A DNA stretch of 13,355 nt from a virus (UHGV-1987395), one strand, 5' to 3'. Shown: positions 1 to 13,355, counted from the first letter of the stretch. Notes: generated by a model not told the origin, from the sequence alone. Program-made: numbers and translations.

Positions 1-1
1 A

Positions 2-346
2 GATGAGCACGGTTATCCGATTCTGACAAGTGATGAGATGAACGCCAAATACAAAGGGATTCAGGCAACATTTAAGGATCGGAAGAGCATTAAACTCTCT
101 GAATTGCGAGATGCATTTTACGGGCCGGAGGTGATGGATAAAATTAAAGGCACCGTTGAGGGTAGAATCTGGAAAGAAGATGATTATTGGCATTTAACAG
201 AACAGGCCCTTAAGGTGGCTCAACATGTAGCTAAAAGAGGTAAAACAATTATCATCGATTATATTAGTCATGGCTATGATGCCCCGAAAGAAAGATTGTG
301 GAACAACTGCAAGCTTGTAAAAGGCGAATTAACCATTACAAAATAA
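2..346 (+). CDS. hypothetical protein, 5'-truncated at window edge
   Basis: Frame is open from position 2 to the TAA at 344-346; the first in-window ATG is at 38. No family recognised. Confidence 0.4.
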   Translation, partial: DEHGYPILTSDEMNAKYKGIQATFKDRKSIKLSELRDAFYGPEVMDKIKGTVEGRIWKEDDYWHLTEQALKVAQHVAKRGKTIIIDYISHGYDAPKERLWNNCKLVKGELTITK

Positions 347-386
347 ACATTCTTATTTTTTTACAGTATTCTAAAGGAAATTTAAA

Positions 387-533
387 ATGTATGGCGATTT
401 TGATTATTACCTGGAAAAGGAAAAATATTTTGAAGATGAACTATCACAACATTTTTCATATTGGGAAGAATATTGTGGTTGGTTAGCTGAAGATCCAGCA
501 GATGAAGAAAATGATTCTGACATCCCTTATTAA
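387..533 (+). CDS. small acidic hypothetical protein (48 aa)
   Basis: ATG at 387 preceded by AGGAAA 6 nt upstream; translation MYGDFDYYLEKEKYFEDELSQHFSYWEEYCGWLAEDPADEENDSDIPY is very D/E-rich. Below the 60-aa cut-off of the ORF track; preferred over the overlapping 298..486 ORF, which has no RBS. Confidence 0.35.
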   Translation: MYGDFDYYLEKEKYFEDELSQHFSYWEEYCGWLAEDPADEENDSDIPY

Positions 534-631
534 TTAATATCCCCTGTTATCCCCAAACAAACTAAATAAATAAACTAAGCACTAGAACTAGATTGATTGC
601 CCTGATCTTTTAAACGTTCGGAGAATTAATC

Positions 632-1117
632 ATGTTCAAATCTGATCTTTCTGATTCCCAATTTGAAAAACTGGTAGCACTGCAGAAATATCTCCCCAGT
701 GATGATCAACCAACACGACAGGCTAAACACTTATTAGTCGAGGGCTTTACCCCTGAATTCGTGGCGGAATATACAGGCGTTAAACTTGAGAAAGTCCAAA
801 AACTATATAATGAGTCCTGGAATCCACGGTGTCGAGTTCCCCTCAGTGTCTACAACGAAATAGATAGAGATAGAAATGTCTTCGAAGATCGCCGCCGCAA
901 ATCTCTTTTAATGTGGAATTGTGGGATGAATATTGAAGAGATAGCAAAAGAATTAAAAGTAACCTGCTTTCATGTCTGGGGCTTGTTGAGTGAAATCCTG
1001 CCACGTAAGGAGCTTAATCAACGTTTGCCTAAGCCCGGTAGTCGTGCTTATCGCGAATTTATATTCATCTACCGCCGCCATAGCAATAAAGTCCGGAAAG
1101 CAATGCAGCGCAAATAG
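632..1117 (+). CDS. putative HTH transcriptional activator (Mor/C-like or sigma region-4-like)
   Basis: GGAG 8 nt upstream of ATG; segment RRKSLLMWNCGMNIEEIAKELKVTCFHVWGLLSEI resembles, from memory, the C-terminal HTH of Mu Mor/C-family activators; basic C-terminus. Confidence 0.4.
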   Translation: MFKSDLSDSQFEKLVALQKYLPSDDQPTRQAKHLLVEGFTPEFVAEYTGVKLEKVQKLYNESWNPRCRVPLSVYNEIDRDRNVFEDRRRKSLLMWNCGMNIEEIAKELKVTCFHVWGLLSEILPRKELNQRLPKPGSRAYREFIFIYRRHSNKVRKAMQRK

Positions 1118-1205
1118 CTTATAGCCTTCACATATGCCGCAAGTTATTGATTCTGCCGTCCGGTAAATATGCCGGATGGCTCATATAAATTTTAAGGAAT
1201 TCCAA

Positions 1206-1649
1206 ATGTCTCAAATCGCTAAATTATTATCCCAGGTTATCAAAGCTATCGACGCTGAAGATTCAAAAGTTCGCCAGGATCTTTTAGATGGCAAGTTTAC
1301 CAACACCCTGGCATTTACCCGTGACAAAGAGCACTTCTTAAAACACAGACACCACGCTTTTGCTGAATGCAAGTCCGCTAATGGTGATGTTTTCTATGTC
1401 GATTTGGTGGTTATGGCATGTAGGCTGTGGATGATTCAGGACCTTATGCGCCAACACGGTGATGATCCTCTTATCAGCATGTGGAACAGCGCCCAGGATG
1501 GCTTTGTGATTGCTGCCTTATCCAAATCAATGATTGAGGCAGAAGGGGCAAGCCTTCAGAACATGGCAGATCTCTTTGAAATAAGCGTAGGAATGATGCA
1601 GACCATGCTCCAAGCTGTCAAACCTCTCAAACTGGTTAATCTTGATTAA
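1206..1649 (+). CDS. hypothetical protein
   Basis: ORF 1176..1649 in the track; ATG at 1206 has AAGGA 8 nt upstream, whereas ATG at 1176 has no clear SD. No family recognised. Confidence 0.45.
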   Translation: MSQIAKLLSQVIKAIDAEDSKVRQDLLDGKFTNTLAFTRDKEHFLKHRHHAFAECKSANGDVFYVDLVVMACRLWMIQDLMRQHGDDPLISMWNSAQDGFVIAALSKSMIEAEGASLQNMADLFEISVGMMQTMLQAVKPLKLVNLD

Positions 1650-1703
1650 GATATTGATAAATAAGCACTCCCCATTTTTTTGGGGGTGCATCAATGAGAG
1701 GAT

Positions 1704-2093
1704 ATGCCTATGAATATTGAAGAAATGATAGTTGAATTCGAAGAGGGTGATTTCCTGGAAGAAGGGGAGTTTAAATACTCCCGTTTTAAACAGGCGTTAT
1801 TTAGCAGCGATGATAAACCCCACGTTAGTGATCTTAATGATGATGATTTATGTCGCCTGGTGTGCACCCGCTTATATGAAGATGGAAAGTATACAGGCCA
1901 AAACTTTCCAAATCTCTATTTCAAAGCACAAACATTTGAGGAAGGGCAAAGAGTGAAAAACCTGGTCGATCAAATGCTGTCAGCCGGATATTTGCATAAA
2001 GAATTATTAAATCCTAAAGCTGAAAGCAAGCGCCATTATATTTTTGTGTGGTCTGTGGGGGATAAGTGCCCACTGAAGCGTAAAGGTAAATGA
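1704..2093 (+). CDS. hypothetical acidic protein; possible tail assembly chaperone
   Basis: GAGAGGA SD upstream of ATG; acidic N-terminus; lies two genes upstream of the tape measure gene, the usual position of chaperones. Call is positional only. Confidence 0.4.
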   Translation: MPMNIEEMIVEFEEGDFLEEGEFKYSRFKQALFSSDDKPHVSDLNDDDLCRLVCTRLYEDGKYTGQNFPNLYFKAQTFEEGQRVKNLVDQMLSAGYLHKELLNPKAESKRHYIFVWSVGDKCPLKRKGK

Positions 2094-2094
2094 T

Positions 2095-2280
2095 ATGAAT
2101 ACCTACGAAAAGATTTATCAAAAATTAAAAAGTGATAACAATGCTCCCGTCATCAAGGGCGGGGCTTCTTCCTCTGGTGACCTCTCAATCGAAGAGCTTG
2201 CGGAGAAATATAATATTGATAAAGAGGCCCTGAAAAGGGCTATTTCATTATCAAAATCTTTAAGACAGGGCGAGGTGTAA
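2095..2280 (+). CDS. hypothetical small protein (61 aa)
   Basis: ATG 1 nt after the stop of the upstream ORF (TGAtATG), suggesting translational coupling; ends 3 nt before the tape measure start. Confidence 0.35.
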   Translation: MNTYEKIYQKLKSDNNAPVIKGGASSSGDLSIEELAEKYNIDKEALKRAISLSKSLRQGEV

Positions 2281-2283
2281 GAG

Positions 2284-4404
2284 ATGGCAATGAAGGAAGT
2301 AGCCAAGCTAACAAACGTTATTTACTGGGATTCTGATAAATCCTCCTGGCGAAAAGAAGTTAAACGGCTTGAGGATTATAAAAAATCCTGGAAGAAAGCT
2401 ACCGACGATATAGCTAAAGCGGATTTTAAATCGAATCAGGCTGTGCTCAGAACACAAAGAACACGCGCTAAGGTGGAAGAGCAGATTGCCAGAGCTCAGA
2501 GGAAACAACAGGAAGCACAGAAGAAACAACGTGCTCAGGCTGTCAGCCGTCTGACCGGGGGCAATAATCCGGAGCTCTCCTCTATGCGCAAGTTCTATCA
2601 GCAGCAAGCCAGAGAGGCCGCCAGACAACAAAAACTGTTAGATCGTAGTGTTGGAGATGTTCAGCACAGAAAAGCACGTGTAGGGGCCAACAGTGCACGA
2701 ATCAGCAGTATGTTTGATGGCTCCCTGGTTGCTCAGTTCCAAAGCAGAATCCAGAGAGTTAATGCTGATTATGCTAAAGGGGCTATCAACCTGCAGACCT
2801 ATAATCAGAGGATGGCCCGACTCAGATCTGAAATGAAGATGGCAACAGCTGAAGCCGGAAAATTCCAGAGCAGACTAGATAAACTGGCATCAGGTGCCAG
2901 CAAGGTGCATGACAACCTGGGCAAAATCAACTCCACGCTGGGCAAGATAGCCATTGGCCTTACTGCCGCTGGCTGGGGTGTTCAGCGTGCTGTTAGTGGT
3001 GCTATGGGTAGCCTTGCAGATCGCAACAGTGCCTACTTCGGTTTGATGGCACAGAACAAGGATGATAAAGCCAAGACTGATCAGCAGATGGCTTTTATCA
3101 AGAACACAGCCTACACCTATGGGATGGATGAGCGGGAGATGCAAGGGGGCTACATGCGCTTTGCTGCAGCTACCCCCACCATGAAGGAATCTGATAAGCA
3201 GGCTCTCTTTGAGGCTATGGCTATTAAAGGCCGCTCAGTGGGTGCTACTGGCGAGCAACAGAACAGGGCGCTTGTTGCGGTCCAACAAATGGCTTCAAAG
3301 GGAAAAGTTATGGCGGAAGAGCTGCGGGGCCAACTGTCAGAAGCCTTTGCAGGCTCACAACAGGACTTCCAACAGGCCGCTATTGATGCCGGAATCATCA
3401 AAAATACCCAGGAATTCGATAAAGCCCTTAAAGATGGCAAAATCACCCTGGACAAACTTCTTCCCTCTCTGGTGAAAATCTGGGGTGCAGCAAAAGAAAC
3501 TAAAGCTTTTGCTGAATCCATGAAACAGCCAGAAGTAGCAATGCAGCGCATGAAAAACAGCTTTAACGAGCTGGCGATTCAGTTTATGGGTGTTGTGGAT
3601 CCTGCAGATGGCGTTATTAGCTTATCTGAATCTCTAATCTCCATCTTCGAAGACCTCACCACTGATATGGACGGCAGCGGGAGCGCGGCAAAACAGTTTG
3701 GTGAGGCAGTCGGTGCTGCCATGCGGGAGATCATGTATTGGGTAGGCTTCGCTAAGGGATATATTGAGGTCAAGGCTAAAGAGTTCGGCATGACCGGATC
3801 AGAGGTTGGCGAGCTTATCGGGAAACTGGTAGTCGGCTTAGCTGGTCTGAAAGTTATTACCACACTGCTTTCCCCTCTGACCGGATTTGTTTCACTTGTC
3901 ACTCAGCTGATAGCCTTGTTAGGTAAAATCCCTGGTATGAGCAAGCTTCTGGCTTCTGCCTCAGGTGGAACGGCAACAGGAGCAGCGGTCATCAGTGCAG
4001 GATCTAACGCTGAAAGAAGCTTCATTGATGGCAAGACGCAGGAAATGAGTAAGGAGAACTCAAAACAGGGTGCTTTGTTTGAGCTGGGAAGATTTGTCAG
4101 CAATGCTGGCGCACTGTTCACACCTGGCGGCGATACTGGTCCTTTGTTCGATCAGGTCAGAGGCTGGTTTAATAAAGGGCCAACATTGACAGTAGACACT
4201 GGCATCAGACCAACACCGACGGGTGGCATGGCTATCCAGAATGGTGGATATCAACCAGTCCAAGTAAATGTAGCCCCACAAGGTGAGATTTCCGGCAAAT
4301 GGGAGATAACCATCGATGAGGGGGGAATTGCCAGGGTAATTCAGAAGGAAGTCAGCGATCAGTTGGATTGGAAAGCCACACAGGAATCTAACCAGCTTTT
4401 CTAA
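2284..4404 (+). CDS. phage tail tape measure protein
   Basis: 706 aa; N-terminal Q/R/K/A-rich predicted coiled coil; central region (NKDDKAKTDQQMAFIKNTAYTYGMDEREMQGGYMRFAAATPTMKESDKQALFEAMAIKGRSVGATGEQQNRALVAVQQMASKG...) resembles the conserved tape-measure core domain; Gly-rich hydrophobic segment near the C-terminus. Confidence 0.7.
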   Translation: MAMKEVAKLTNVIYWDSDKSSWRKEVKRLEDYKKSWKKATDDIAKADFKSNQAVLRTQRTRAKVEEQIARAQRKQQEAQKKQRAQAVSRLTGGNNPELSSMRKFYQQQAREAARQQKLLDRSVGDVQHRKARVGANSARISSMFDGSLVAQFQSRIQRVNADYAKGAINLQTYNQRMARLRSEMKMATAEAGKFQSRLDKLASGASKVHDNLGKINSTLGKIAIGLTAAGWGVQRAVSGAMGSLADRNSAYFGLMAQNKDDKAKTDQQMAFIKNTAYTYGMDEREMQGGYMRFAAATPTMKESDKQALFEAMAIKGRSVGATGEQQNRALVAVQQMASKGKVMAEELRGQLSEAFAGSQQDFQQAAIDAGIIKNTQEFDKALKDGKITLDKLLPSLVKIWGAAKETKAFAESMKQPEVAMQRMKNSFNELAIQFMGVVDPADGVISLSESLISIFEDLTTDMDGSGSAAKQFGEAVGAAMREIMYWVGFAKGYIEVKAKEFGMTGSEVGELIGKLVVGLAGLKVITTLLSPLTGFVSLVTQLIALLGKIPGMSKLLASASGGTATGAAVISAGSNAERSFIDGKTQEMSKENSKQGALFELGRFVSNAGALFTPGGDTGPLFDQVRGWFNKGPTLTVDTGIRPTPTGGMAIQNGGYQPVQVNVAPQGEISGKWEITIDEGGIARVIQKEVSDQLDWKATQESNQLF

Positions 4405-4504
4405 TGTCCACTCTGTGGATTTGAGTTCTACTCAAACCTGCATAGCAGGCACTGATATTGTGATCAAAATCAATAAGTTAGCCTGACCGGGTAAACTCCA
4501 GGCA

Positions 4505-4537
4505 AGAAAAAAGCCCCTAAGTGTTAACAAAGGGGCT
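4505..4537 (-). terminator. candidate intrinsic terminator, minus strand
   Basis: 7-bp stem AGCCCCT (4512-4518) / AGGGGCT (4531-4537) with a 12-nt loop, followed on the minus strand by TTTTTT (plus A-run 4505-4511). Confidence 0.45.
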
Positions 4538-4957
4538 CTTCTCCGGTATCCTTTTGATGCGGGGCGAACCTGCTAACAAAAATCAACCTCTCGCGAGACT
4601 AATGTTAGCAGGTTGCCGGAAGGTAAGTCAACTCCGGTCTATAAACCTTAAAGCGACTATAAAATCGCCCCGCCAATTGTGATGATCCGACCTTTGAGGC
4701 GGGTCCGGTGCCCAGGGGGGTGCAGTGATGCACAAACCAGGCAACGATAAACAGGCTAACAGTGATAGCGGCGCTCAATCAGCGCACTAAATCCTAACCA
4801 GTCCGGGAAAGAGGCTGGCTCTATCGACCGCTCATGCACGGGACAATGCATACCTGATAAAGGATTCTCACAAGGGACCAATCGCGAGAAAAGAAGAGGA
4901 AAGGGGCTGATTTGTGGTGTATCACTACGGCCTCAAAAGACCTTCTATTGTCTTTTT

Positions 4958-5416
4958 TCAACCTCTCCCCACATTTGACCAGTATTTGATTGCACCGATC
5001 AAATCATCATAGTGGCGCATTGCATCATTGAAGCCTTTATAGCTTGCCCATTGTGGGGAAACCTTGTTATTGCTGAATTGCCCACTAATCAGGATAGTCT
5101 CCAGAATGTCGGCGTATCGCTTGCCAATTCGCTTTCTGACGGCCTCAGAGCTTCCACCCTTTACGATTGCATTAATCAGGGCTTTTGTGTGTCTCAGGCT
5201 CTCATAGAGCATTGCAGCGTGGGCAGATTCCATAAAGGAGCGCTTAGGCAGATCACCCCACCCCTCAGAGTGGATAGCTGCCAGTGTGGCGTAATTCAGG
5301 CCGCTATAGTGCTTTCCGTCATCCCAGCCAACCGCTACACCTTCCATCTGTGAGAGCTCTTTATGCAGCTTATCCATCATGCGCTTGTCTATGGTGCAAC
5401 GGACTTTCGGACTCAT
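4958..5416 (-). CDS. putative virion morphogenesis / head-tail joining protein
   Basis: 152 aa; ATGA start-stop overlap with the upstream gene; segment LAAIHSEGWGDLPKRSFMESA resembles, from memory, the motif of HK97 gp10-like head-tail joining proteins. Weak. Confidence 0.35.
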   Translation of the reverse strand: MSPKVRCTIDKRMMDKLHKELSQMEGVAVGWDDGKHYSGLNYATLAAIHSEGWGDLPKRSFMESAHAAMLYESLRHTKALINAIVKGGSSEAVRKRIGKRYADILETILISGQFSNNKVSPQWASYKGFNDAMRHYDDLIGAIKYWSNVGRG

Positions 5417-6216
5417 TTGTTGATCTCCGTGATGTCATCGAGCAACATGTTGGCCTTATCAATCATCGTTTCGTGGAACTCATTCGACACAACAGACTTA
5501 TCACCTGCGGCAATCTTTCCCGCTGCCTCTCCCTGTGCATATTCCCCGCGATGCTTAGCCCTGGTAGATTTCGTAGCAGCGTTGCCAGCGTTGCTACCCT
5601 CTTTAGCACTGTTAACAGCACCCTTTTGCTGTGTTTTATTCACCTTCTTACTGTTAGTGAAAACTCCGGCATTTTCGACCATCTTCACCTTGAAGGTGCG
5701 GAATTCTTCAAAGGTGCAATCAATAGTGATGCAGTCACCAGAGGAAGAGCTACGCTTAACTTCACATTTCGTCATGATGAAGTTCTCAAGGAGTCCGGCA
5801 TCTTCACTCACCAGGCTGACCAGCTGGCGCTTGTCTCTCATTTCCATAAGTGCCTGAACAGCGGCAGCAGGGCGCATAGATTCACGGGGATTATCTGGAT
5901 CAGTGTTCCGGTCGATGTAGTTCTCTTTCCGGATGATATAAGGGGAAGAGGTAATAATACCCGTAAAGCTGACAGATTTATCTTTAATGACGGCATGGTC
6001 TGACATGGTGGTGCCATCCTCGACCGCATAGCTCGATTTCTCAACAGGGAACGAATAGCTGACATCAGAGATAGAGTCAAAGAAGATAGCCACATTATCG
6101 GTATAGTTGAAGCCATCCATTATATTTTTGTTTTGTGAATATCCCCCACACATAACAGTGAATGCAGGAGATCTCGACTCAGCTTGTTTTGCAGCTGTCA
6201 GAGCATCACTAGCCAT
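5413..6216 (-). CDS. hypothetical protein, probable virion protein by context
   Basis: ORF 5413..6225 in the track; ATG at 6216 has GGAGG 10 nt upstream, while the ATG at 6225 sits 1 nt from the SD. In the capsid operon; no family recognised. Confidence 0.45.
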   Translation of the reverse strand: MASDALTAAKQAESRSPAFTVMCGGYSQNKNIMDGFNYTDNVAIFFDSISDVSYSFPVEKSSYAVEDGTTMSDHAVIKDKSVSFTGIITSSPYIIRKENYIDRNTDPDNPRESMRPAAAVQALMEMRDKRQLVSLVSEDAGLLENFIMTKCEVKRSSSSGDCITIDCTFEEFRTFKVKMVENAGVFTNSKKVNKTQQKGAVNSAKEGSNAGNAATKSTRAKHRGEYAQGEAAGKIAAGDKSVVSNEFHETMIDKANMLLDDITEINK

Positions 6217-6321
6217 ATTAAACATGCCTCCAAAATGAATCTTTTCGTTGCCCTGCTTAAAATCTGCAGAAAATACAGGGCAGTTATTCGTTAGAATCGC
6301 TTATAGCTCTTCCCGAGAGCG

Positions 6322-6573
6322 TTATTTTGCAAAACGATTATGGGCATTCAGGGCTTTTTTGCGGTCCTGGGCTTGTTTGCGTGCAATAAAATGTTCGAAA
6401 GTCTCGGCCCAGGTGCATTTATTATATTCACGGTATTTATGCATAGCCTGGCGGCTAACGTCATAGCAGGCGGCAAATGTGGAGATACGCAGGAATTCCG
6501 GCAGATCCTCGTCATCGATATGGATAATATCAAAAGGCACGTCGTCACGGTCGCCGTATAAAACAATTTTCAT
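6322..6573 (-). CDS. hypothetical small protein (83 aa)
   Basis: ATG at 6573 with GAGGTG 6 nt upstream; the 6582 start in the track is GTG. Lies just downstream of the post-capsid terminator hairpin. Confidence 0.4.
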   Translation of the reverse strand: MKIVLYGDRDDVPFDIIHIDDEDLPEFLRISTFAACYDVSRQAMHKYREYNKCTWAETFEHFIARKQAQDRKKALNAHNRFAK

Positions 6574-6605
6574 AAAATACACCTCAAAAACTTAAGACGG
6601 GGATA

Positions 6606-6670
6606 ACAAAAAAGGGAAGAGGGAAAGACCTATCCCCGATCTCTCACCTCTTCCCTTTGCTTTTATTTGG
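6606..6670. terminator. bidirectional intrinsic terminator/attenuator between capsid gene and downstream gene
   Basis: 9-bp stem GGGAAGAGG (6614-6622) / CCTCTTCCC (6647-6655); flanked by an A-run 6608-6613 (a T-run on the minus strand) and a T-rich tract 6656-6668 on the plus strand. Confidence 0.55.
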
Positions 6671-6686
6671 CCTTCGAAGAAGGACC

Positions 6687-7730
6687 TTATTTAGCCTTGG
6701 CTTTTGCCAGAGCAGCGGCGGCGGAGTTTTTAACACTCACTTTAACCACAACTTCGGGCATCATGTTCATGAAAGCATAAGAGGATTCAACGAAGATTTC
6801 TCGTTTGCCTCTGGACTCTTCCATATACATGAAAGCTTCACGTGCAGCGCCGTTTGCAAGCTTCAGGTTGCGAGCGCAAGGGCCGAAAAATTGAGTATAA
6901 ACGCCCACCATATCGCCTAACGCATGCGGCTGGAACTGTGGGACCAGATAAGCAGTATTCTCTGGCAGACTATCCATTTGCACCACACGCAGAGCTAAGC
7001 CCGGAATGCGGAAGGTCGGGAAGCCCGGCAGAATATCCTCAGGGAACATCAGACCTTTGTCGGTAATATTCTGATTGCCGAACAACAGCACTTTACGGAG
7101 CAGTTCATCAGTCTGAATAGCGGCGAACACCTCAGCACGGCAGAACAGGGTGAAACCACGCAGAGCGCGAACGACACCACGCTGTTTAACCTTGCTCAGT
7201 GCAACCAGGTCCTGCAGTTGTTTGAGAATATCTTGAGCTAGATCCATTTCAGAGGTGGACTGTTCCACGCCCAGCAGTTCGCACACATTCAGCTCTTTAC
7301 CCTTGGTGAGGATAATTTTGTTCTCAAAGAGAGCAAGCTGGCGTGCTTCTTCGTGGGTCTGGCGTAAGCCTTCGCCCAGTTGAATAACACGACGAGCGGT
7401 TACAGACTCTAAATTCTCTTCGGAATCTTTGCCAGGAACACGAATACCCTGCCAGTCAGAAGGATAAATAGCACTTGATGCGGCAGTGAACGCCATATCA
7501 CCCGTGCCCGTTTCACGCTCATCTGCGGTAATGGTCGCCATCTGTTCACCGTAGCGCGGATACTGACCGAAAGCGGTTTGTTTCACCTGGCGAACTTTGT
7601 CATATTCAAATTTAAAGGTATTGCACAGAGCAGTAGTGTTGAAGATATCCATTGCTGAAATAATCTGGTTATCCAGCGGGATGTCTTTAATCAAGCCACA
7701 CAGATCGCGGACTTCGAATTCTTTTTTCAT
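6687..7730 (-). CDS. phage major capsid protein (E-family-like)
   Basis: 347 aa from ATG 7730 with AAGGAGG 6 nt upstream (the 7736 start in the track is TTG); size and position directly after a decoration-like gene match the usual decoration + E-family capsid pairing; Ala/Lys-rich C-terminal tail. Confidence 0.6.
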   Translation of the reverse strand: MKKEFEVRDLCGLIKDIPLDNQIISAMDIFNTTALCNTFKFEYDKVRQVKQTAFGQYPRYGEQMATITADERETGTGDMAFTAASSAIYPSDWQGIRVPGKDSEENLESVTARRVIQLGEGLRQTHEEARQLALFENKIILTKGKELNVCELLGVEQSTSEMDLAQDILKQLQDLVALSKVKQRGVVRALRGFTLFCRAEVFAAIQTDELLRKVLLFGNQNITDKGLMFPEDILPGFPTFRIPGLALRVVQMDSLPENTAYLVPQFQPHALGDMVGVYTQFFGPCARNLKLANGAAREAFMYMEESRGKREIFVESSYAFMNMMPEVVVKVSVKNSAAAALAKAKAK

Positions 7731-7741
7731 CTCCAACCTCC

Positions 7742-8077
7742 TTATTGTGCAATTCGCAAATCGCCATTGCTGGCAGCGATAACAGCGGCTAAGCCTTCTT
7801 TATCCACGTAGGCCGGATTGATGTAGCAACCTTTGTTGGCAACAACGATAAAAGCATCACCAACCTCAGCACGTTCTACAACCAGCAGCGGAGTTTTACC
7901 GGTGTGCGTTGCTTTAACGAAGGTCTCAACCTCGCCAGCCTCAGTCACCACAACAACAGTGCCAGCCGGAATCTCAGCCTTAACTTTGTTTTTAACTTCA
8001 ACGTCGCGAATACTAAATTGCTCATCTGCGGCGTATGAAATGATGTGTCCGCGTGTGCGGATAGTCATATCTCTCAT
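7742..8077 (-). CDS. putative head decoration protein (DUF2190-like)
   Basis: 111 aa; AGGTGA 4 nt upstream of ATG; Val/Gly/Ala-rich beta-type sequence; sits directly upstream of the capsid gene, with its stop overlapping the capsid SD. Confidence 0.5.
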   Translation of the reverse strand: MRDMTIRTRGHIISYAADEQFSIRDVEVKNKVKAEIPAGTVVVVTEAGEVETFVKATHTGKTPLLVVERAEVGDAFIVVANKGCYINPAYVDKEGLAAVIAASNGDLRIAQ

Positions 8078-8567
8078 TTGATCACCTGCGATTTAAATTA
8101 ACTCCCCTCAAAGAGTTCCGGTATAACCTCTCAAACCACGACAGGCTCGGGCCGAAAAGTTATGCCGGAAATCTAAAGGGAAATTGATACAAGGAGAGGG
8201 AGATAGCCCCGCACCGTAGCCAAGCGGGGGCTATTCCACATGGGGAAACCGACAACAGTCGGATGATAGTTCACAGTATGGTTACGGTTACTAGAGAGCA
8301 CTATCACGAAAGGCACTCCCCCGAATCAGTTCAGGCTGCGGTCACATCAGCGGGGAAATACCTTTCGGGATAGCTACCCACACAGAAAACCCGCAAAAGA
8401 AAACTGTGTGGATAACTAGCCCAATAGGAGAATTAATCGACCACTCAACGATGATCAGGGTAGTGTTATTTATAAGGCGGCACCGCTACCTGGTCGCCTT
8501 TACTTTGGAGGAAAATACGGCAAATCAAGATCTTCTCAAATGATATTGATTCCATACTATACTGTAT

Positions 8568-8596
8568 ATTATATCAGTATTTACTCACATTGTCAA
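8568..8596 (-). promoter_or_regulatory. consensus sigma70 promoter reading leftward toward the capsid operon
   Basis: On the minus strand: TTGACA (plus 8596-8591), 17-nt spacer, TATAAT (plus 8573-8568). Perfect match at both hexamers with optimal spacing. Confidence 0.6.
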
Positions 8597-8750
8597 CACC
8601 TTGATTATATAAATTCTAATAATTAGCGTAGTAACGGTATTTTCAGACCTCTATCAATCCCATCAATACGTCACCCCCACCCTTTAGATGCATACATCCG
8701 ACCTACTTTGTAGGCTTGGCGTACTGCCAAGGTCGCAGCTATGCGACTCC

Positions 8751-8783
8751 TATCTATCACCACTTTATAAAGCTTGATAGATA
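8751..8783. promoter_or_regulatory. dyad-symmetric operator-like site
   Basis: TATCTATCA (8751-8759) and TGATAGATA (8775-8783) are perfect inverted repeats, concentric with an inner perfect palindrome CTTTATAAAG (8763-8772); overlaps a candidate -35 TTGATA at 8774-8779. Confidence 0.4.
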
Positions 8784-8926
8784 TCTTTTGATCAATATCA
8801 ATGTTTTCCAGAGATTTACCCGGCTATAGTTCGAATCAAGGAAGGGGAGCATTGATAGAGACACCCAAAGGGGTGACTGAAAGTCACCTGGCATAGCCAG
8901 TGAAAGCACCCAACCGAACAAACAAA

Positions 8927-8944
8927 TCAACTTCTCGCAAAAGG
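8927..8944 (+). promoter_or_regulatory. conserved 5'-UTR motif, copy 1
   Basis: TCAACTTCTCGCAAAAGG ends 8 nt before ATG 8953; near-identical to the copy at 9446-9464. Confidence 0.4.
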
Positions 8945-8952
8945 TGATAGTT

Positions 8953-9075
8953 ATGGGTATCAAGAACAGTGCCAGCGCATGGCAAAAGGCCAGGTTTCAT
9001 CACCCACACATGGTCAAGGCAATTGAGGTGGTTGGAGTTTTAGCCCTGATGTTAGCTCTGTGTGTGGAGGTGTGA
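8953..9075 (+). CDS. possible small membrane peptide (40 aa)
   Basis: AAGGTGA SD; translation MGIKNSASAWQKARFHHPHMVKAIEVVGVLALMLALCVEV has a C-terminal hydrophobic helix; preceded by the conserved TCAACTTCTCGCAAA motif. Below the track cut-off. Confidence 0.25.
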   Translation: MGIKNSASAWQKARFHHPHMVKAIEVVGVLALMLALCVEV

Positions 9076-9076
9076 G

Positions 9077-9157
9077 ATGGGTAAAGGAGGCAAAGAATTT
9101 TTAATAGGTCTGGCAGTCTTAGATTTTGTATTAATCATCATTGAGCGGAGTTTATGA
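9077..9157 (+). CDS. possible small membrane peptide (26 aa)
   Basis: GGAGGTG SD 4 nt upstream; translation MGKGGKEFLIGLAVLDFVLIIIERSL; its stop overlaps the next start as ATGA. Confidence 0.2.
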   Translation: MGKGGKEFLIGLAVLDFVLIIIERSL

Positions 9158-9414
9158 CGGGAACTAAAGATATTAAGAGACTGAGGGAAGAGCTGATAGC
9201 TGAAATTAAAGCTAAGGCAAAGCAAATGGAGATAGCCGCACAAATGGATGTAGCGGAACAGATGTACAAGATGGTTGAGGAGGGAACGCCACGACAGGTT
9301 ATAGCAAAAACCTTCGGTGTGGGGATCGCCACCGTGCACAGAAGGCTGAAAGCCTATGCCGACTACCACAATATCGAGAGAAAGGAGGATGGGAGATTTA
9401 AGAAGAATAAATAG
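9154..9414 (+). CDS. small DNA-binding protein with resolvase/invertase-type HTH
   Basis: 86 aa; charged helical N-terminus; C-terminal GTPRQVIAKTFGVGIATVHRRLK resembles, from memory, the Hin/Gin C-terminal HTH (GHPRQQLAIIFGIGVSTLYRY); no recombinase catalytic domain. Confidence 0.5.
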   Translation: MTGTKDIKRLREELIAEIKAKAKQMEIAAQMDVAEQMYKMVEEGTPRQVIAKTFGVGIATVHRRLKAYADYHNIERKEDGRFKKNK

Positions 9415-9445
9415 TGTGAACAGTCCAATAGGTTATTAACTAAAT

Positions 9446-9464
9446 TCAACTTCTCGCAAAGGGG
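9446..9464 (+). promoter_or_regulatory. conserved 5'-UTR motif, copy 2
   Basis: TCAACTTCTCGCAAAGGGG ends 7 nt before ATG 9472; same motif as 8927-8944. Confidence 0.4.
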
Positions 9465-9471
9465 TACCACT

Positions 9472-10059
9472 ATGAACATTAAAACTATCATTGCAGCCAT
9501 CACCATTGCCTTTAGTGCCAACACTGCAGCTATTGATGTTAATTTATTTCAGAAGATGACTTGCGAAGATAAATTAGTTGCCATGGATAAGGGGCTAGAA
9601 GCCACGCATAATGGGGAACAGTTTCATTTCTCCTTGAAGAATCTTATCTTGCCCCTGGATTCTGCCGCACAGGTATATGCAACATTGGGTAAATTTGAGA
9701 AGCCGGAAATTGACCTGCAGGGCGTGAGAGCGAAGATCACCAAAAGAAATGAAAGCATTTGTGATATAGCGGTTACGGCCCTTATGACAGATGATGAAAA
9801 AACGATTATAGCTACATGCAAAGATAGCAACGACAACGAACGATTCTTTAAGATCACCCACAACAGGCCCGTTTCTTTCTACTCTAATGCCACAATGGGC
9901 GCGGGTATGCAGTGGCTGAAGAGAGCTAAAGTAACTGAGGTTAATGCTGATGACGATTTATCCTATGAATACGGTTTTATTTCCAATTATATGGCGTGGC
10001 ACCTGAAAAAATGCGGCATCAATGGTCAGGCATACGACAATGGATTTTGGTTTTTCTAA
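9472..10059 (+). CDS. secreted/periplasmic protein of unknown function
   Basis: N-terminal signal peptide MNIKTIIAAITIAFSANTAA with an AxA-like cleavage site; AGGGG SD; followed by an intrinsic terminator at 10081-10106; ends in aromatic FWFF. Confidence 0.55.
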   Translation: MNIKTIIAAITIAFSANTAAIDVNLFQKMTCEDKLVAMDKGLEATHNGEQFHFSLKNLILPLDSAAQVYATLGKFEKPEIDLQGVRAKITKRNESICDIAVTALMTDDEKTIIATCKDSNDNERFFKITHNRPVSFYSNATMGAGMQWLKRAKVTEVNADDDLSYEYGFISNYMAWHLKKCGINGQAYDNGFWFF

Positions 10060-10080
10060 CCTATTAAGTTAATCCCACCT

Positions 10081-10106
10081 GGGGGCCATCACGGCCCCTT
10101 TTTATT
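10081..10106 (+). terminator. intrinsic terminator after the secreted-protein gene
   Basis: GGGGCC (10082-10087), loop ATCAC, GGCCCC (10093-10098), then TTTTTATTT. Confidence 0.65.
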
Positions 10107-10108
10107 TA

Positions 10109-10164
10109 TCCCCTATTTAACCCCTATTTAATGGGTATTTAATGCCTATTTATTGATTTAATGG
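10109..10164. repeat. five tandem copies of an 11-bp unit (consensus about CCCTATTTAA)
   Basis: TCCCCTATTTAA / CCCCTATTTAA / TGGGTATTTAA / TGCCTATTTAT / TGATTTAATGG in direct succession immediately after the terminator; 11-bp period is about one helical turn. Confidence 0.55.
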
Positions 10165-11566
10165 TTTTGGGCATTGTTGACAGTGTAAGAGAGAGGATGT
10201 AACCCTTTTTTGTAATACTAATAAAATCAATAGCTTAGCTCAATTGGCCTTTTCTCTGTTTTTGTCAAATTTAACATACCCTAAAAAACTGCAAAATCTG
10301 GCTGCAAGATTATCTGCAGCTGGATTTCTTACACCTCATTTTGTGGTATCACCCTGACTAGTTTGTGCATAAAATGAACAGTTTTTAACATTTCCTCTTC
10401 ACCTGGTAACCACACAAAAAGCTAAAAACGAGGCACAGATAATCTTAGAGGCCTGTTTTCTTGTTATCACTCTAGAAACGTCGTAGAGATGATTTTAATG
10501 AAAGATGACCTACCCTATTACACCCCTATTTTTTGTTATCACAATTGCATCCTGTGCGGTGTATGGCTATGTGCTGAAAGCGGTCTTATGTGTGGGTGTC
10601 AGAAATATCCATTAGCGGTATTAATACCCGTCGGAGATTCGTCTGAGGTGCCAGGCAGGCGCTCCCCCACCTCCCTTTTTTCTTCTAACAATTCTCAAAT
10701 ATCACACCACTGCCGACCACGTTACTACTCTGTTAATTCTTAAGCTTTGCTGTATGTTGTGCACATTATTTATTCAGGTGGCTGTACGTAAATTCTGTGC
10801 CCACTGATCATGATTTTTAAATCAGATTTTGTAGTTCGCTTTATTAGTGTAGATAAGATCTATTATGTTAAATGCAATTTTCCCAACCCTTCAAATCAAT
10901 GACTTACATGTAAGTATGCACTAACACCCCACACAGCACATTAGACGTATAGATGGCTATATCCCACATTTTTGATTGTTTTGTAGTCATTCCCCTGATC
11001 ATTTAACCAGTATAGTTTGTTCTCTGTAGACCACAAAATCGGAATTTACATCTGATTAACATAATCTGTTAGCATGATCACTATTACCCACACAACAATA
11101 ACCCCATGCAAGCCTCTTTAGGCAATTTATCGGCGTGTTGGTGTGAACAGTCTTTCATGTTCTTTATGAATTCATGACTGCAAGGAATGTATTCATTGTC
11201 CTGTGTGGGGGAAGGATGGACTGCCCCAGGGGCCATAGTTATGACACCCGGTCAACATAACTGTCGATAAAATCAACGGGTGTTGGTATGCATATTTCCC
11301 ACACATGAGAGAAAATCAAAGCAAAGAGAGAGGAGAGAGGTTTGCTAGTCAAAATAGGTCAATTGACGGCTAATACAGAGTAAAAAATCAGATGCAATCA
11401 CTCCCCCACCTGTTGGGATTTCCTACAACCCCTTTCAGTCATACTCAGGCACCACACCCCGGTAAATATTACCGCACTAACCTGTAAAGAATTTTCACAC
11501 CTGTGTGTTTATACAGTCATACTCTCCTGTTTTGCAGTCATTGCACCCATGATACACAGCCCCTAA

Positions 11567-11676
11567 CCTGTCAAAATATTTTACTACTTAGCCACTATAG
11601 CTATGCATACCTGTAAAATATTTTTACTACTACCTGTCAAAATACTTTACTACTACCTGTAAAAATATTTGACACT
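11567..11676. repeat. iteron-like 22-bp direct repeats (four copies, plus a degenerate copy at 11481-11500)
   Basis: CCTGTCAAAATATTTTACTACT (11567-11588), CCTGTAAAATATTTTTACTACT (11610-11631), CCTGTCAAAATACTTTACTACT (11633-11654), CCTGTAAAAATATTTGACACT (11656-11676); the last three are spaced 23 bp start to start. Confidence 0.6.
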
Positions 11677-11789
11677 AATAGATAAAGTAATAGACCACAC
11701 AAGATCCCCCCTAACCCCCCAGGGGGAATGGGGAGGGATCAGAGAGTGGGGAAGGTTTTCTAAGGGAAAAGCTTAACCCACAAATGAAA

Positions 11790-11818
11790 GCCTAAAGAGC
11801 ATTAGCGACTCTTTAGGC
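11790..11818. repeat. perfect 10-bp inverted repeat (hairpin or operator)
   Basis: GCCTAAAGAG (11790-11799), 9-nt spacer, CTCTTTAGGC (11809-11818); the half-site CTCTTTAGGCAAT recurs at 11114-11126. Confidence 0.5.
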
Positions 11819-12258
11819 AATATGTGTGTGGGTCACTCTGTGACTTTAGCTATACAGCTAAACCGACTACGTCGGCCTGTGTGTGGGGGTGACAATGTAT
11901 TCCATACATGACACGTCACCCAATTGTGTGTGGTCCGGCGAATGCGTCAGCATGAGGCCCACATGTGGACCGCTGCCGAAAGCTTGCCAGCGCCGGAAGG
12001 AGGCAGCAAAGAGTCTCCCGCGCGGGTGCACGCACACACATACAAAGGATACACTCATAAATCGAAAATAAGCCACCTAAATGGCCTTCTGGCTGCATTA
12101 ACTAGTGTGAGTAGTGCAATTGCATTACCTGACCTCTAAATCGCGTTAGAATCGATTTTAGAGCGCTTAAGGCAAAAAGTGCCCTCCCTTGTGGGCTTGC
12201 TTGTGTCTGCTGTGCAGGCTATGGCACCTATAGCACACCTAAATGATAATAATTCTCA

Positions 12259-12277
12259 TTGACAATTGGTTGACAAT
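12259..12277. promoter_or_regulatory. tandem TTGACAAT boxes (candidate operator or overlapping -35 elements)
   Basis: TTGACAAT at 12259-12266 and 12270-12277, 11 bp apart; a third copy at 12449-12456 forms the -35 of the downstream promoter. Confidence 0.4.
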
Positions 12278-12448
12278 GTGATAAGATTATAAATAGGGGG
12301 AGAAACAGATCCGGAGGTCAATGTGGAAATTACTGATGCAATAGCGATCATCAACCTGGCTGTACTGTGGTGCGGTGTTGCCTACATAGCCGGAGTAACT
12401 GCAATCGACAATCTTGAAGAAAAAATGATAGATAAATACAAAAAGATT

Positions 12449-12477
12449 GTTGACAATTTGACGAATGTCTGATAAAA
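12449..12477 (+). promoter_or_regulatory. sigma70-like promoter upstream of the 71-aa gene
   Basis: TTGACA (12449-12454), 17-nt spacer, TAAAAT (12472-12477). Confidence 0.5.
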
Positions 12478-12605
12478 TATAAAGCATAGGGTAATTCTCA
12501 TCATAGTGAATTTCCTTTAGTAGACTGGCGGGGGCTTGTCTTAAGTTCCCGTTTCTTTTTAATCATATATCGCACAGGTTAGTGAGCTAACAGGAGGCTT
12601 ATACT

Positions 12606-12821
12606 ATGGCTAAAACCGGACCGATCAGCCAGTTGGTAAACTGGACTACTGACGAAATCGTCGAGAACGTACTTAAGGGGAACTTCCGCAAAACTTCCGT
12701 TTATGCATTCATTCGTAAACATAAAGGAGAATATCCACACATTGAAGAAGCAATTTTAAAACTAAATTGCATTCGCCTTGAGCGGGAACTGGCTAAATAC
12801 ACCAATAACATTAATAAATAA
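12606..12821 (+). CDS. hypothetical small protein (71 aa), possible DNA-binding regulator
   Basis: AGGAGG 8 nt upstream of ATG; lies about 130 nt downstream of a consensus-like promoter; no family recognised. Confidence 0.45.
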   Translation: MAKTGPISQLVNWTTDEIVENVLKGNFRKTSVYAFIRKHKGEYPHIEEAILKLNCIRLERELAKYTNNINK

Positions 12822-12835
12822 TTATGGGGGAATTA

Positions 12836-13355
12836 TGGCAAGTAATTACGGGGAAAATTTTACTCCCCTTTTTAAACGTTTCATCAAATACATTTTTAAA
12901 AATCCGATTGCAAAAACTACAACCAATAAAGAAAGATTTCACTTAAACTTGTTGGAAATGACAATTTACGGTGAGATGGCAAGTTTTAATGCTGCAGGTT
13001 GTGAAATATTTATCTCTGAACAGAGATTAGCAGACGATTATGATGTTTCAAGACCGACAGTTATTAACTCGATTAAATCTCTAGAAAATGCCGGGCTTAT
13101 TTCAATAGTTAAAAGTAAAGGCAAATCTAATCATTACAAACTGCTAATTACCCCTGATCAGCTTGGCAAGATGTGTGATGAGCAGGGTATTAAAACCTCC
13201 GACAGTGTGGGATCTAGTAAAGAGGCCCCCGATAATCAACAGGAAGCCCCAAAACAAGCCACACAGCAAGCTAAAAAGGCCGAGGTGGTGCAATTGCCTA
13301 CCCAACCTAAGAACGAGCGCAGAGAGCGCTTTAGAGACGCTGGCAAACGTGAGAA
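12836..13355 (+). CDS. winged-HTH DNA-binding protein, putative replication initiator or regulator (3'-truncated)
   Basis: Open from ATG 12836 to the window end; segment ISEQRLADDYDVSRPTVINSIKSLENAGLISIVKSKGKSNHYKLL is a classic winged-HTH; followed by a low-complexity Q/K/A/E-rich linker. Confidence 0.5.

What the first reader, a model, noticed from the sequence alone, without database searches (positions are those of the whole stretch)
10109..10164. Five tandem 11-bp repeats immediately after a terminator
Helical-turn-phased YCCCTATTTAA units place the same sequence on one face of the DNA. This is typical of arrays bound by terminase small subunit, partition proteins, or bending proteins. 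A -35-like TTGACA follows at 10177-10182.
Basis: seen in the sequence. Interest (0 to 1): 0.45.

Follow-up and report, generated by a model that had tools for sequence, protein, structure and literature searches.

The report
Phased 11-bp protein-binding array, plasmid
A short stretch where the same 7-letter AT-rich box recurs exactly every 11 bases is real and kept in every known copy of a small E. coli plasmid that carries phage head and tail genes. It is most likely a docking platform for a DNA-binding protein, an ordinary kind of element whose binder and role are still unproven.

Summary
TATTTA recurs five times at exactly 11-bp spacing (unit starts 10099-10143), followed by a degenerate sixth unit at 10154. 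No shuffle of the window comes close.

The window is a whole circular ~13.4-kb E. coli plasmid. It encodes a lambda-O-like Rep plus phage capsid and tail genes. The tail genes resemble those of rV5-like (Vequintavirinae) phages.

All 33 family loci examined (18 sequence variants) keep five in-phase YAWTTAW cores plus the degenerate unit. The 4-nt spacers vary freely. A conserved GTTGACA box stays on the same helical face across a 10-bp indel. A conserved IHF consensus site follows a spacer that varies in sequence but is always 40 nt long.

- **Not the Rep-binding site:** Rep and its iterons, 1.3 kb away, vary strongly between members while the array does not.
- **Not a copy of a helper-phage site:** no phage, other plasmid or E. 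coli chromosome carries the array.
- **Not the easiest-melting DNA** in the element.

Best reading (about 0.42): a cooperative binding platform for a conserved factor. The leading candidate is the adjacent, conserved 86-aa Hin-like HTH protein. The platform would act as a centromere-like site and operator, as in StbA-stbS or ParR-parC. Binder and function are inferred, not shown.

Interest is moderate. The plasmid family itself is the more unusual find.

The parts
10081..10104 (+). Intrinsic terminator of the HTH-plus-cargo operon (GGGGGCC-ATCAC-GGCCCC, then a T-run). The T-run doubles as the spacer of the first repeat unit.
   Evidence: -14.5 kcal/mol. It is conserved in relatives with three different upstream genes. 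In type B relatives it lies up to about 110 bp from the array, so direct adjacency is not essential.
10099..10153 (+). Five in-phase 11-bp units, NNNN-YAWTTAW, here TTTT/CCCC/CCCC/TGGG/TGCC followed by TATTTA(A/T).
   Evidence: All 33 family loci have five such cores. Unit positions 6, 8, 9 and 10 are invariant and positions 1-4 vary freely.
10154..10164 (+). Degenerate sixth unit, TGATTTAATGG (TGATTTAAT is invariant in the family).
10146..10158 (-). Near-consensus IHF site AATCAATAAATAG (12 of 13 positions of WATCAANNNNTTR), overlapping units 5 and 6.
   Evidence: The sequence is invariant in relatives. Matches at this stringency are not enriched in the window overall (24 found against 19.5 expected), so this is weak evidence on its own.
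10176..10182 (+). Conserved GTTGACA box. It resembles the -35/operator motif TGTTGACAATGTGA shared by the element's three strong promoters but has no matching -10.
   Evidence: It starts 23 nt (type A) or 33 nt (types B and C) after the start of the sixth unit, so helical phase is kept across a 10-bp indel.
10183..10221 (+). Spacer that varies in sequence but not in length. Four unrelated alleles occur in the family, and all put exactly 40 nt between TTGACA and AAAATCAATA.
10222..10237 (+). Conserved TAAAAT (10222-10227) overlapping a perfect IHF consensus, AATCAATAGCTTA (10225-10237).
   Evidence: In relatives the only changes fall at the N positions of the consensus (AATCAATAACTTA, AATCAATAAGTTA).
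9154..9414 (+). Gene for an 86-aa protein with a long N-terminal helix (residues 4-42) and a Hin/resolvase-type HTH (47-72). It is the candidate binder of the array.
   Evidence: Pfam HTH_7 at 3.6e-6. Hin DNA-binding domain 1hcr at E 3.5e-4. AlphaFold model with mean pLDDT 82.7. It is 93-100% identical across the family, whereas Rep is 37-73%. The link to the array is inferred, not shown.
9472..10059 (+). Exchangeable cargo gene (195 aa; its sequence reads as starting with a signal peptide, which I did not test), lying between the HTH gene and the terminator.
   Evidence: Relatives carry unrelated genes of 173, 179, 225, 233 or 236 aa in the same slot.

Best explanation
The array is a fixed-size, helically phased platform for cooperative binding of a conserved sequence-specific DNA-binding protein. 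It has five YAWTTAW boxes plus one degenerate box at an 11-bp period.

The best candidate binder is the element's own 86-aa Hin-like HTH protein. Its operon ends at the terminator that abuts the array. I propose that protomers line up head-to-tail on one face of about 66 bp. Together with IHF-induced bends at 10146-10158 and 10225-10237 and the phase-locked GTTGACA box, they would form a higher-order nucleoprotein complex. This complex sits at the left edge of the plasmid's 2.2-kb cis-acting, ORF-poor region.

By analogy with R388 StbA-stbS and R1 ParR-parC, the complex would serve as a centromere-like plasmid-maintenance site and, at the same time, as an operator for the adjacent promoter-like element.

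Shown: the array, its conservation, its spacing constraints and its independence from Rep. Inferred: the identity of the binder, cooperative filament formation and the segregation/operator role.
For: 1. The array is far beyond chance.
2. All 33 family loci (18 distinct sequences) keep five phased cores plus the degenerate unit. This holds even where the leftmost unit is built from different DNA (TTTTTATTTAT against TGAGCAATTAA or TGATCAATTAA). Core positions are invariant and the 4-nt spacers vary (CCCC, GGGG, TGGG, TGCC, TACC). That pattern indicates selection on the boxes and their phase, not recent slippage.
3. A 10-bp indel keeps GTTGACA on the same helical face. The next spacer is always 40 nt despite four unrelated sequences. 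A perfect IHF consensus follows and changes only at its N positions.
4. Rep (37-73% identity) and its palindromic iterons at 11449-11677 differ between members. The array core and the 86-aa HTH protein (93-100% identity) do not.
5. The array is unique to this plasmid family. It is absent from E. coli chromosomes, other plasmids and phages. This fits a family-encoded binder.
6. The region also holds a dif/cer-like Xer core that is invariant in 22 members, DnaA-box-like motifs and the iterons. This is the usual neighbourhood of plasmid-maintenance sites.
7. The architecture matches known centromere/operator arrays. R388 stbS has 9-bp repeats plus 2-bp spacers, giving an 11-bp period, in sets of five. 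Its binder is an HTH protein and no NTPase partner is needed (bioRxiv 10.1101/2022.04.29.490116). R1 parC has two sets of five 11-bp iterons (PMC2241845).
Against: - No binding data exist.
- The 86-aa protein resembles the E-helix plus DNA-binding domain of a serine recombinase. From general knowledge, that type usually binds inverted half-sites as a dimer, not direct repeats.
- Its fold search gave only generic HTH matches, all with E above 0.1.
- The element encodes no ParA, ParM or TubZ-type NTPase.
- The array lies downstream of the HTH operon. In stb and par loci it lies upstream and overlaps the promoter.
- The motif does not recur at the element's promoters. The single extra hit at 12289 is lost in two relatives. 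The half-array at 10513-10531 is degenerate in relatives. So no regulon-like use is seen.
- The family is narrow: every member found is from E. coli or from E. coli-like contigs. Conservation could therefore partly reflect recent common ancestry.
- The plasmid's copy number is unknown. A high-copy plasmid would not need a centromere.
Confidence: 0.42

Rival explanations
1. Upstream activating or architectural element bound by host proteins. Candidates are IHF, Fis, H-NS or an OmpR/PhoB-type response regulator that reads direct repeats at 11-bp spacing. The element would control a weak promoter (conserved TAAAAT at 10222-10227) that transcribes the highly conserved non-coding region to the right.
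For: - IHF-type sites lie at 10146-10158 and 10225-10237.
- The TAAAAT hexamer is conserved in all four spacer alleles, while the -35 position is poor, as expected for an activator-dependent promoter.
- GTTGACA keeps helical phase with the array.
- The array has strong AT/GC alternation at 10.5-11 bp, which suits wrapped DNA.
- A 13-bp RNA hairpin at 10294-10327 forms a continuous stem only on the + strand, through two G-U pairs. Its z-score is -5.0, against -3.7 for the other strand. DNA at 10230-10700 is 94-98% identical among relatives.
- From memory, not tested: PhoP (TGTTTA-N5-TGTTTA), PmrA (YTTAAK-N5-YTTAAK), ArcA and PhoB boxes are direct repeats at an 11-bp period.
Against: - The consensus scan finds no sigma-70 promoter here.
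- No transcript data exist.
- No host-factor matrix was available, so the response-regulator resemblance is untested.
- The box TATTTA lacks the G that, as I recall, is conserved in PhoP boxes.
- Rfam finds no known RNA in the region.
- IHF-like matches are not enriched in the window.
Confidence: 0.2
2. Packaging recognition (pac) site. A small-terminase-like protein, from the element or from a helper phage, oligomerises on the phased boxes, with IHF assisting as at lambda cosB or P1 pac. It then recruits the helper's large terminase so that plasmid concatemers are packaged.
For: - The element looks like a phage satellite. It has its own major capsid protein, a tape measure protein, a Dit-like tail tube initiator (50% identical to that of Vequintavirus MaxTheCat) and a neck/tail-completion protein (45% identical). 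It has no terminase or portal gene. It therefore needs some packaging signal.
- A 39.6-kb trimer record exists.
- Phased repeats next to IHF sites resemble known terminase-binding regions (general knowledge).
Against: - No terminase small subunit is recognisable among the element's proteins.
- The 86-aa HTH protein has the opposite domain order to typical small terminases, with the helix first and the HTH last.
- Vequintavirus MaxTheCat has no SSSTATTTAW box and no array of this kind. None of 50,697 phage records matches the array.
- The DNA segments that the element does share with rV5-like phages lie elsewhere: 8855-8906, 10680-10703 and 11963-12027. These are better candidates for helper-recognised sites.
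Confidence: 0.12
3. DNA-unwinding element or auxiliary origin element. The AT-rich 11-mers would melt, or load DnaA or Rep on single strands, as the 13-mers do in oriC and in iteron-plasmid origins.
For: - The array is among the less stable stretches, about the sixth local minimum for 66-bp windows at 74% A+T.
- DnaA-box-like CCCACACA motifs are frequent in the non-coding regions, and a perfect TTATCCACA lies at 8406 on the minus strand.
- An IHF site next to an AT-rich repeat block recalls oriC and pSC101 (general knowledge).
Against: - The Rep iterons are 1.3 kb away, at 11449-11677.
- The iteron block itself and two promoter regions are less stable than the array.
- Every unit carries a G/C-rich 4-mer, which does not help melting.
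- The array does not co-vary with Rep or the iterons.
- The nearest DnaA-like box, at 10410, is about 250 bp away.
Confidence: 0.08
4. Functionless minisatellite produced by replication slippage next to a terminator T-run.
For: Tandem 11-mers of the form NNSSTATTTAW turn up as simple repeats in many unrelated genomes and metagenomes. The family is young and narrow.
Against: - The units differ in their spacers but not in their cores.
- The number of units is the same in all 18 sequence variants.
- The leftmost unit has been rebuilt from different DNA while keeping register.
- Neighbouring elements keep helical phase with the array.
- Slippage arrays would normally vary in copy number and have identical units.
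Confidence: 0.05

Closest known systems
R388 StbA-stbS segregation/operator system
   Same: Direct repeats at an 11-bp period (9 bp plus a 2-bp spacer) arranged in sets of five. They are bound cooperatively on one DNA face by a small HTH protein. No plasmid NTPase is required for stability. The same repeats serve as centromere and operator.
   Different: The repeat sequence is unrelated (YTGCATCAT against YAWTTAW). stbS has two sets of five that overlap the stbA promoter upstream of the gene, whereas here one set lies downstream of the HTH operon. The 86-aa protein is a Hin/resolvase-type HTH, while StbA is described as related to the PadR family. R388 is a large conjugative plasmid.
R1 ParR-parC (type II partition centromere)
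   Same: Sets of five 11-bp direct iterons, each bound by one dimer, next to a promoter. The DNA is curved or folded in the complex.
   Different: ParR is a ribbon-helix-helix protein (general knowledge) and needs the actin-like ATPase ParM. Neither is encoded here. parC has two sets flanking the promoter.
Terminase-binding pac/cos regions (lambda cosB R sites with IHF; P1 pac hexamer repeats with IHF; SPP1 pacL/pacR)
   Same: Repeated short boxes with helical phasing next to IHF sites, in an element that must be packaged by a phage (general knowledge).
   Different: No small terminase gene is present. The array is not in or next to a terminase gene and is absent from candidate helper phages.
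P2 Cox / 186 Apl / lambda Xis arrays
   Same: Small winged-helix or HTH proteins that coat several direct repeats about one helical turn apart. In the case of P2 Cox this switches on a satellite (P4) promoter. This comparison rests on general knowledge and is a lead only.
   Different: The box sequences differ, the element encodes no integrase or attachment site, and the comparison was not tested.

Membership tests
Type II partition centromere (ParMRC, parC-like) | Tandem direct repeats of about 11 bp in sets of about five | tested here: met
   Five phased 11-bp units plus one degenerate unit in all 33 loci. parC architecture is taken from PMC2241845.
Type II partition centromere (ParMRC, parC-like) | Adjacent genes for an actin-like ATPase (ParM) and a ribbon-helix-helix ParR | tested here: not met
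   Pfam, PHROGs and NCBIfam scans of the element's proteins found no ATPase or RHH protein. In the 13.4-kb element every ORF above 200 aa (Rep, tape measure, Dit-like, capsid) is already assigned a replication or phage-structural role.
StbA-stbS type segregation system | 11-bp-period direct repeats in sets of five, bound by an HTH protein without an NTPase partner | tested here: inconclusive
   The repeat architecture and the absence of an NTPase fit. Binding by the 86-aa HTH protein is untested.
StbA-stbS type segregation system | stbDR consensus YTGCATCAT and a StbA-family protein, with the array overlapping its own promoter | tested here: not met
   The box here is YAWTTAW. The HTH protein hits Pfam HTH_7 and the Hin DNA-binding domain. 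The array lies downstream of the operon's terminator.
Terminase small-subunit pac site | A small terminase encoded by the element or helper that recognises the site | tested here: not met
   No terminase-family hit among the element's proteins. The 86-aa protein has no tblastn match in 50,697 phage records.
Terminase small-subunit pac site | The same site is present in the helper phage genome (for satellites that borrow the helper's recognition) | tested here: not met
   MaxTheCat (135 kb) has zero SSSTATTTAW boxes and no array of TATTTA boxes at 11-bp spacing. The array has no match in the phage collection.
Terminase small-subunit pac site | Packaged DNA ends or packaging series start at the site | not testable with these tools
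   This needs virion DNA sequencing after helper infection.
DNA-unwinding element of an iteron origin | Lies directly beside the initiator's iterons | tested here: not met
   The iterons are at 11449-11677, 1.3 kb from the array.
DNA-unwinding element of an iteron origin | Region of lowest helical stability | tested here: not met
   For 66-bp windows the array is about the sixth local minimum. 327-392, 8558-8623, 11614-11679 and 10808-10873 are less stable.
Sigma-70 promoter at TTGACA 10177 | A -10 hexamer 16-18 bp downstream of the -35 | tested here: not met
   The hexamers at that position are TAACCC, TCACCC, TGGAGC and TAACCA in the four alleles. The site is not listed by the promoter scan.
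IHF binding site | Match to WATCAANNNNTTR | tested here: met
   13 of 13 at 10225-10237, conserved with changes only at the N positions. 12 of 13 at 10146-10158 on the minus strand. Binding itself was not tested.

The most novel reading that the evidence does not exclude
The array is the element-specific recognition site through which a previously undescribed plasmid-borne satellite of virulent rV5-like (Vequintavirinae) phages is mobilised. It would be either the site where the satellite's own small HTH protein redirects the helper's packaging motor, or a helper-sensing switch that turns on the conserved non-coding region. The family carries its own capsid, tape measure and tail-initiator genes. 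It shares three short non-coding segments with rV5-like phages. It is present in more than 200 E. coli assemblies. I found no paper describing a Vequintavirinae satellite.
Probability: 0.12. Interest if true: 0.75.

Novelty: new member of a known kind. Interest (0 to 1): 0.35.

Why it matters
On its own, the array is one more helically phased repeat block of the kind that plasmids use as centromeres, operators or packaging sites.

It matters mainly as a handle on an uncharacterised element. This is a widespread 13-kb E. coli plasmid family with phage capsid and tail genes related to rV5-like lytic phages. At least one member has acquired resistance genes.

The array is family-specific, strictly conserved and only about 66 bp long. 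That makes it an easy first target for EMSA, deletion and ChIP experiments. These could show how the element is maintained, regulated or mobilised.

Tried and rejected
- **Helper pac mimicry: rejected for now.** I scanned the whole Vequintavirus MaxTheCat genome and the phage collection for the array. Neither contains it.
- **Wider search for the array: uninformative.** Pattern scans of viral, genome and metagenome collections returned mostly unrelated simple 11-bp tandem repeats. Five further family members also turned up, with the same array types.
- **More distant relatives, to look for co-variation of the box with a protein: failed.** Capsid-based locus searches found nothing. Protein searches with the capsid and the HTH protein returned only E. 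coli family members.
- **Extra copies of the box as an operator set: rejected.** The hit at 12289 (minus strand, at the start site of the 12259 promoter) is lost in two relatives. The half-array at 10513-10531 is degenerate in relatives.
- **Rep as the binder: rejected.** Rep and its iterons vary strongly while the array stays constant.
- **DNA-unwinding element: disfavoured**.
- **Strong intrinsic bend: not supported.** A wedge model, using parameters I recalled from memory, gives about 38 degrees against a mean of 16. Several sites in the element are more curved.
- **Sigma-54 promoter, DnaA low-affinity array, T4 MotA box, T4 late promoter and T7/T3-type promoter:** I considered each by eye and dropped it, because key positions or spacings do not fit.
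- **Known RNA families:** none found.
- **Fold search with the HTH protein model:** only generic HTH matches.
- **Literature:** searches for a Vequintavirinae satellite or this plasmid family found nothing relevant.

Full report
**Observation.**
The sequence from 10099 to 10164 reads TTTTTATTTAT CCCCTATTTAA CCCCTATTTAA TGGGTATTTAA TGCCTATTTAT TGATTTAATGG. The hexamer TATTTA recurs five times at exactly 11-bp spacing, and a sixth unit is degenerate. Tandem Repeats Finder reports period 11.

Across 300 dinucleotide-preserving shuffles of the window, the longest chain of any 6-mer at any period from 7 to 15 was 2 or 3. The observed chain is 5. SSSTATTTAW has 6 matches against 0.57 expected. The site has the strongest 10.5-11-bp AT/GC periodicity in the window.

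A 7-pair G+C-rich hairpin followed by a T-run (10081-10104; -14.5 kcal/mol) directly precedes the array. TTGACA lies at 10177-10182.
- The array starts at the terminator's T-run.
- The conserved part is the 7-mer core, not YCCCTATTTAA.

**What the window is.**
The window is a complete circular element.
- An ORF runs off the right end and continues to 346. It encodes a 288-aa HTH protein that matches phage replication initiators of the lambda-O and DnaD-like kind.
- Close relatives are E. coli plasmids of 13.2-13.7 kb. One 39.6-kb record is a head-to-tail trimer.
- The index lists the element's HTH protein in 228 blocks of the assembly collection, mostly on contigs of 10-20 kb.
- One relative carries an insertion with aminoglycoside phosphotransferase and tetR genes.

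The genes are:
- a tape measure protein (2284-4404);
- a neck/tail-completion protein (4958-5416, minus strand);
- a Dit-like tail tube initiator (5413-6225, minus strand);
- a major capsid protein (6687-7736, minus strand);
- an 86-aa HTH_7 protein (9154-9414);
- a 195-aa cargo gene (9472-10059).

No terminase, portal or NTPase gene is present.

The Dit-like protein is 50% identical to its counterpart in Vequintavirus MaxTheCat. The tail-completion protein is 45% identical and the tape measure 27%. The capsid protein has no tblastn match in the phage collection. Two stretches lack long ORFs: 8078-9153, which holds two small ORFs of 40 and 26 aa just upstream of the HTH gene, and 10060-12250.

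**Comparative anatomy of the array.**
I compared 33 family loci, which give 18 distinct sequences.
- Every locus has five in-phase cores of the form YAWTTAW followed by the degenerate unit TGATTTAAT. One variant, found at three loci, has an extra in-phase unit further left.
- Unit positions 6, 8, 9 and 10 never vary. The four spacer positions vary freely (CCCC, GGGG, TGGG, TGCC, TACC, TTTT).
- The leftmost unit is built from the terminator T-run in some members. In others it is built from unrelated DNA (TGAGCAATTAA, TGATCAATTAA), always in register.
- Some members have two further units 58 bp upstream.
- The terminator lies 0 to about 110 bp from the array, so direct adjacency is incidental.

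To the right of the array:
- A conserved GTTGACA box starts either 23 or 33 nt after the start of the degenerate unit. The two alleles differ by 10 bp, about one helical turn.
- Then comes a spacer with four unrelated sequence alleles, always 40 nt long.
- Then comes a conserved TAAAAT overlapping a perfect IHF consensus (10225-10237). Its only changes in relatives fall at the unspecified positions.
- A 12-of-13 IHF match overlaps units 5 and 6 on the minus strand.

These constraints on number, phase and spacing, set against free spacer sequence, argue for a protein-DNA complex. They argue against a slippage product.

**What the array is not.**
- **Not the Rep-binding site.** Palindromic iterons lie 1.3 kb away at 11449-11677. 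Between members these iterons belong to different sequence classes, and Rep is only 37-73% identical. The array core and the 86-aa HTH protein (93-100% identical) stay constant.
- **Not the easiest-melting DNA.** It is about the sixth local stability minimum. Every unit carries a G/C-rich 4-mer.
- **Not a copy of a helper-phage site.** MaxTheCat has no SSSTATTTAW box and no array of this kind. The array matches nothing in 50,697 phage records, nothing on E. coli chromosomes and no plasmid outside the family. The DNA the element does share with rV5-like phages lies elsewhere.
- **Not shown to precede a promoter.** TTGACA has no usable -10 at 16-18 bp in any allele. It does resemble the extended motif TGTTGACAATGTGA of the element's three near-consensus promoters. 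It may therefore be an operator-type box.
- **Not strongly bent.** Predicted intrinsic curvature is only moderate, from a wedge model using parameters I recalled from memory.

**Candidate binder.**
The 86-aa protein is predicted to have a long N-terminal helix (residues 4-42) followed by an HTH (47-72), with mean pLDDT 82.7. It matches Pfam HTH_7 and the Hin DNA-binding domain. It looks like the E-helix plus DNA-binding domain of a serine recombinase without the catalytic domain.

Three points favour it as the binder. It is encoded in the operon that ends beside the array. It is as conserved as the array. It is confined to this family.

The evidence is circumstantial. From general knowledge, such domains usually read inverted half-sites. 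The fold search gave only generic HTH matches.

**Most likely mechanism.**
I read the array as a cooperative binding platform. Protomers would sit head-to-tail on one face of about 66 bp. IHF bends on either side and the phase-locked GTTGACA box would complete a higher-order complex at the edge of the plasmid's cis-acting region.

That region also holds:
- a dif/cer-like Xer core (10846-10873), invariant in 22 members;
- many DnaA-box-like motifs;
- the iterons.

The closest known architectures are R388 stbS and R1 parC. stbS has 9-bp repeats plus 2-bp spacers in sets of five. It is bound by an HTH protein that needs no NTPase and also acts as a repressor. parC has two sets of five 11-bp iterons. 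I therefore favour a centromere-like/operator role, with confidence about 0.42.

The rivals are:
- a host-factor upstream element for a weak promoter feeding the conserved non-coding region (0.20). A + strand-specific 13-bp RNA hairpin at 10294-10327 gives this some support;
- an element-specific packaging site (0.12);
- an unwinding or auxiliary origin element (0.08);
- a neutral repeat (0.05).

**Membership.**
The array meets the repeat architecture of parC and stbS. It fails their other defining features: no ParM or ParR, a different box sequence, a different protein family and a different position relative to the promoter. It works like these systems at most and is not a member of either. 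It also fails the testable features of a terminase pac site, of an unwinding element and of a complete sigma-70 promoter.

**Novelty and interest.**
The array is a new example of a familiar kind of element, with no binding or function data, so interest is moderate (0.35). The setting is more striking. This is an apparently undescribed plasmid family with phage structural genes tied to virulent rV5-like phages, and I found no literature on it. If the array proves to be the site through which such a satellite is packaged or senses its helper, the interest would be much higher. I put that at about 0.12.

Noticed in passing
window 1-13355 (whole element): The window is a complete circular ~13.4-kb E. 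coli plasmid with a lambda-O-like Rep and phage capsid, tape measure, Dit-like and tail-completion genes, but no terminase or portal. The tail proteins are 27-50% identical to those of rV5-like (Vequintavirinae) phages. Hundreds of assemblies carry it. It looks like an undescribed plasmid-type phage satellite or an assembly-interference element.
   Followed up: partly
window 8855-8906, 11963-12027, 10680-10703: Three short non-coding segments match rV5-like phage DNA at 83-96% identity. Two of them hit the phage's own 2.5-kb gene-free region (MaxTheCat 90.05-92.58 kb). The 65-bp segment hits about 100 Vequintavirinae genomes near their tRNA cluster. In the 52-bp segment, which forms three hairpins, plasmid and phage differ only in the loops.
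   Followed up: partly
window 11449-11677: A block of palindromic iterons (ACCTGTMAAAATATTTTACTACT five times, plus CGGTAAATATTACCG). In other family members it is replaced by different iteron classes (ACCTGTTGGAATTTCCCACAGGT, ATATGCTGGAATTTCCCGCATAT). Rep is also hypervariable (37-73% identity). This is probably the origin and a diversifying incompatibility module.
   Followed up: partly
window 10846-10873: AGTGTAGATAA-GATCTA-TTATGTTAAAT has a right arm identical to the XerD arm of dif as I recall it, and a 7-of-11 left arm. It is invariant in 22 family members. A perfect IHF consensus lies 20 bp to its right (10894-10906). It is a candidate multimer-resolution site.
   Followed up: partly
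window 8378-11928 (non-coding parts); MaxTheCat 90.1-92.9 kb: The DnaA-box-like motif YCCACACA is concentrated in the element's non-coding DNA, with 14 of 26 CCACAC sites. A perfect TTATCCACA lies at 8406 on the minus strand. The same motif clusters in the phage's gene-free region.
   Followed up: no
window 8568-8596 (minus strand), 12259-12287 and 12450-12478 (plus strand): Three near-consensus sigma-70 promoters (10-12 of 12 positions, all with TG) share the extended motif TGTTGACAATGTGA, probably a common operator. They drive the divergent structural-gene and Rep operons.
   Followed up: no
window 9415-10080: The slot between the HTH gene and the conserved terminator holds unrelated genes in different members (173, 179, 195, 225, 233 and 236 aa). 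It behaves as an exchangeable cargo position.
   Followed up: no
window 10230-10700, hairpin 10294-10327: ORF-poor DNA that is 94-98% identical among relatives. A 13-bp hairpin (z-score -5.0) is continuous only on the + strand, through two G-U pairs. No Rfam family matches. It may be an unknown non-coding RNA.
   Followed up: partly
window 12323-12472; 8954-9076; 9078-9158: Small hydrophobic ORFs. One of 49 aa lies between the two rightward promoters. Its differences from relatives look mostly synonymous by eye, and it is annotated in RefSeq relatives. Two of 40 and 26 aa lie just upstream of the HTH gene.
   Followed up: no
locus L014 13900-21041 (NTNY01000053.1): One family member sits on a 30-kb contig with aminoglycoside phosphotransferase genes, a DDE transposase and tetR next to the element. 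The family can therefore pick up resistance cargo.
   Followed up: no
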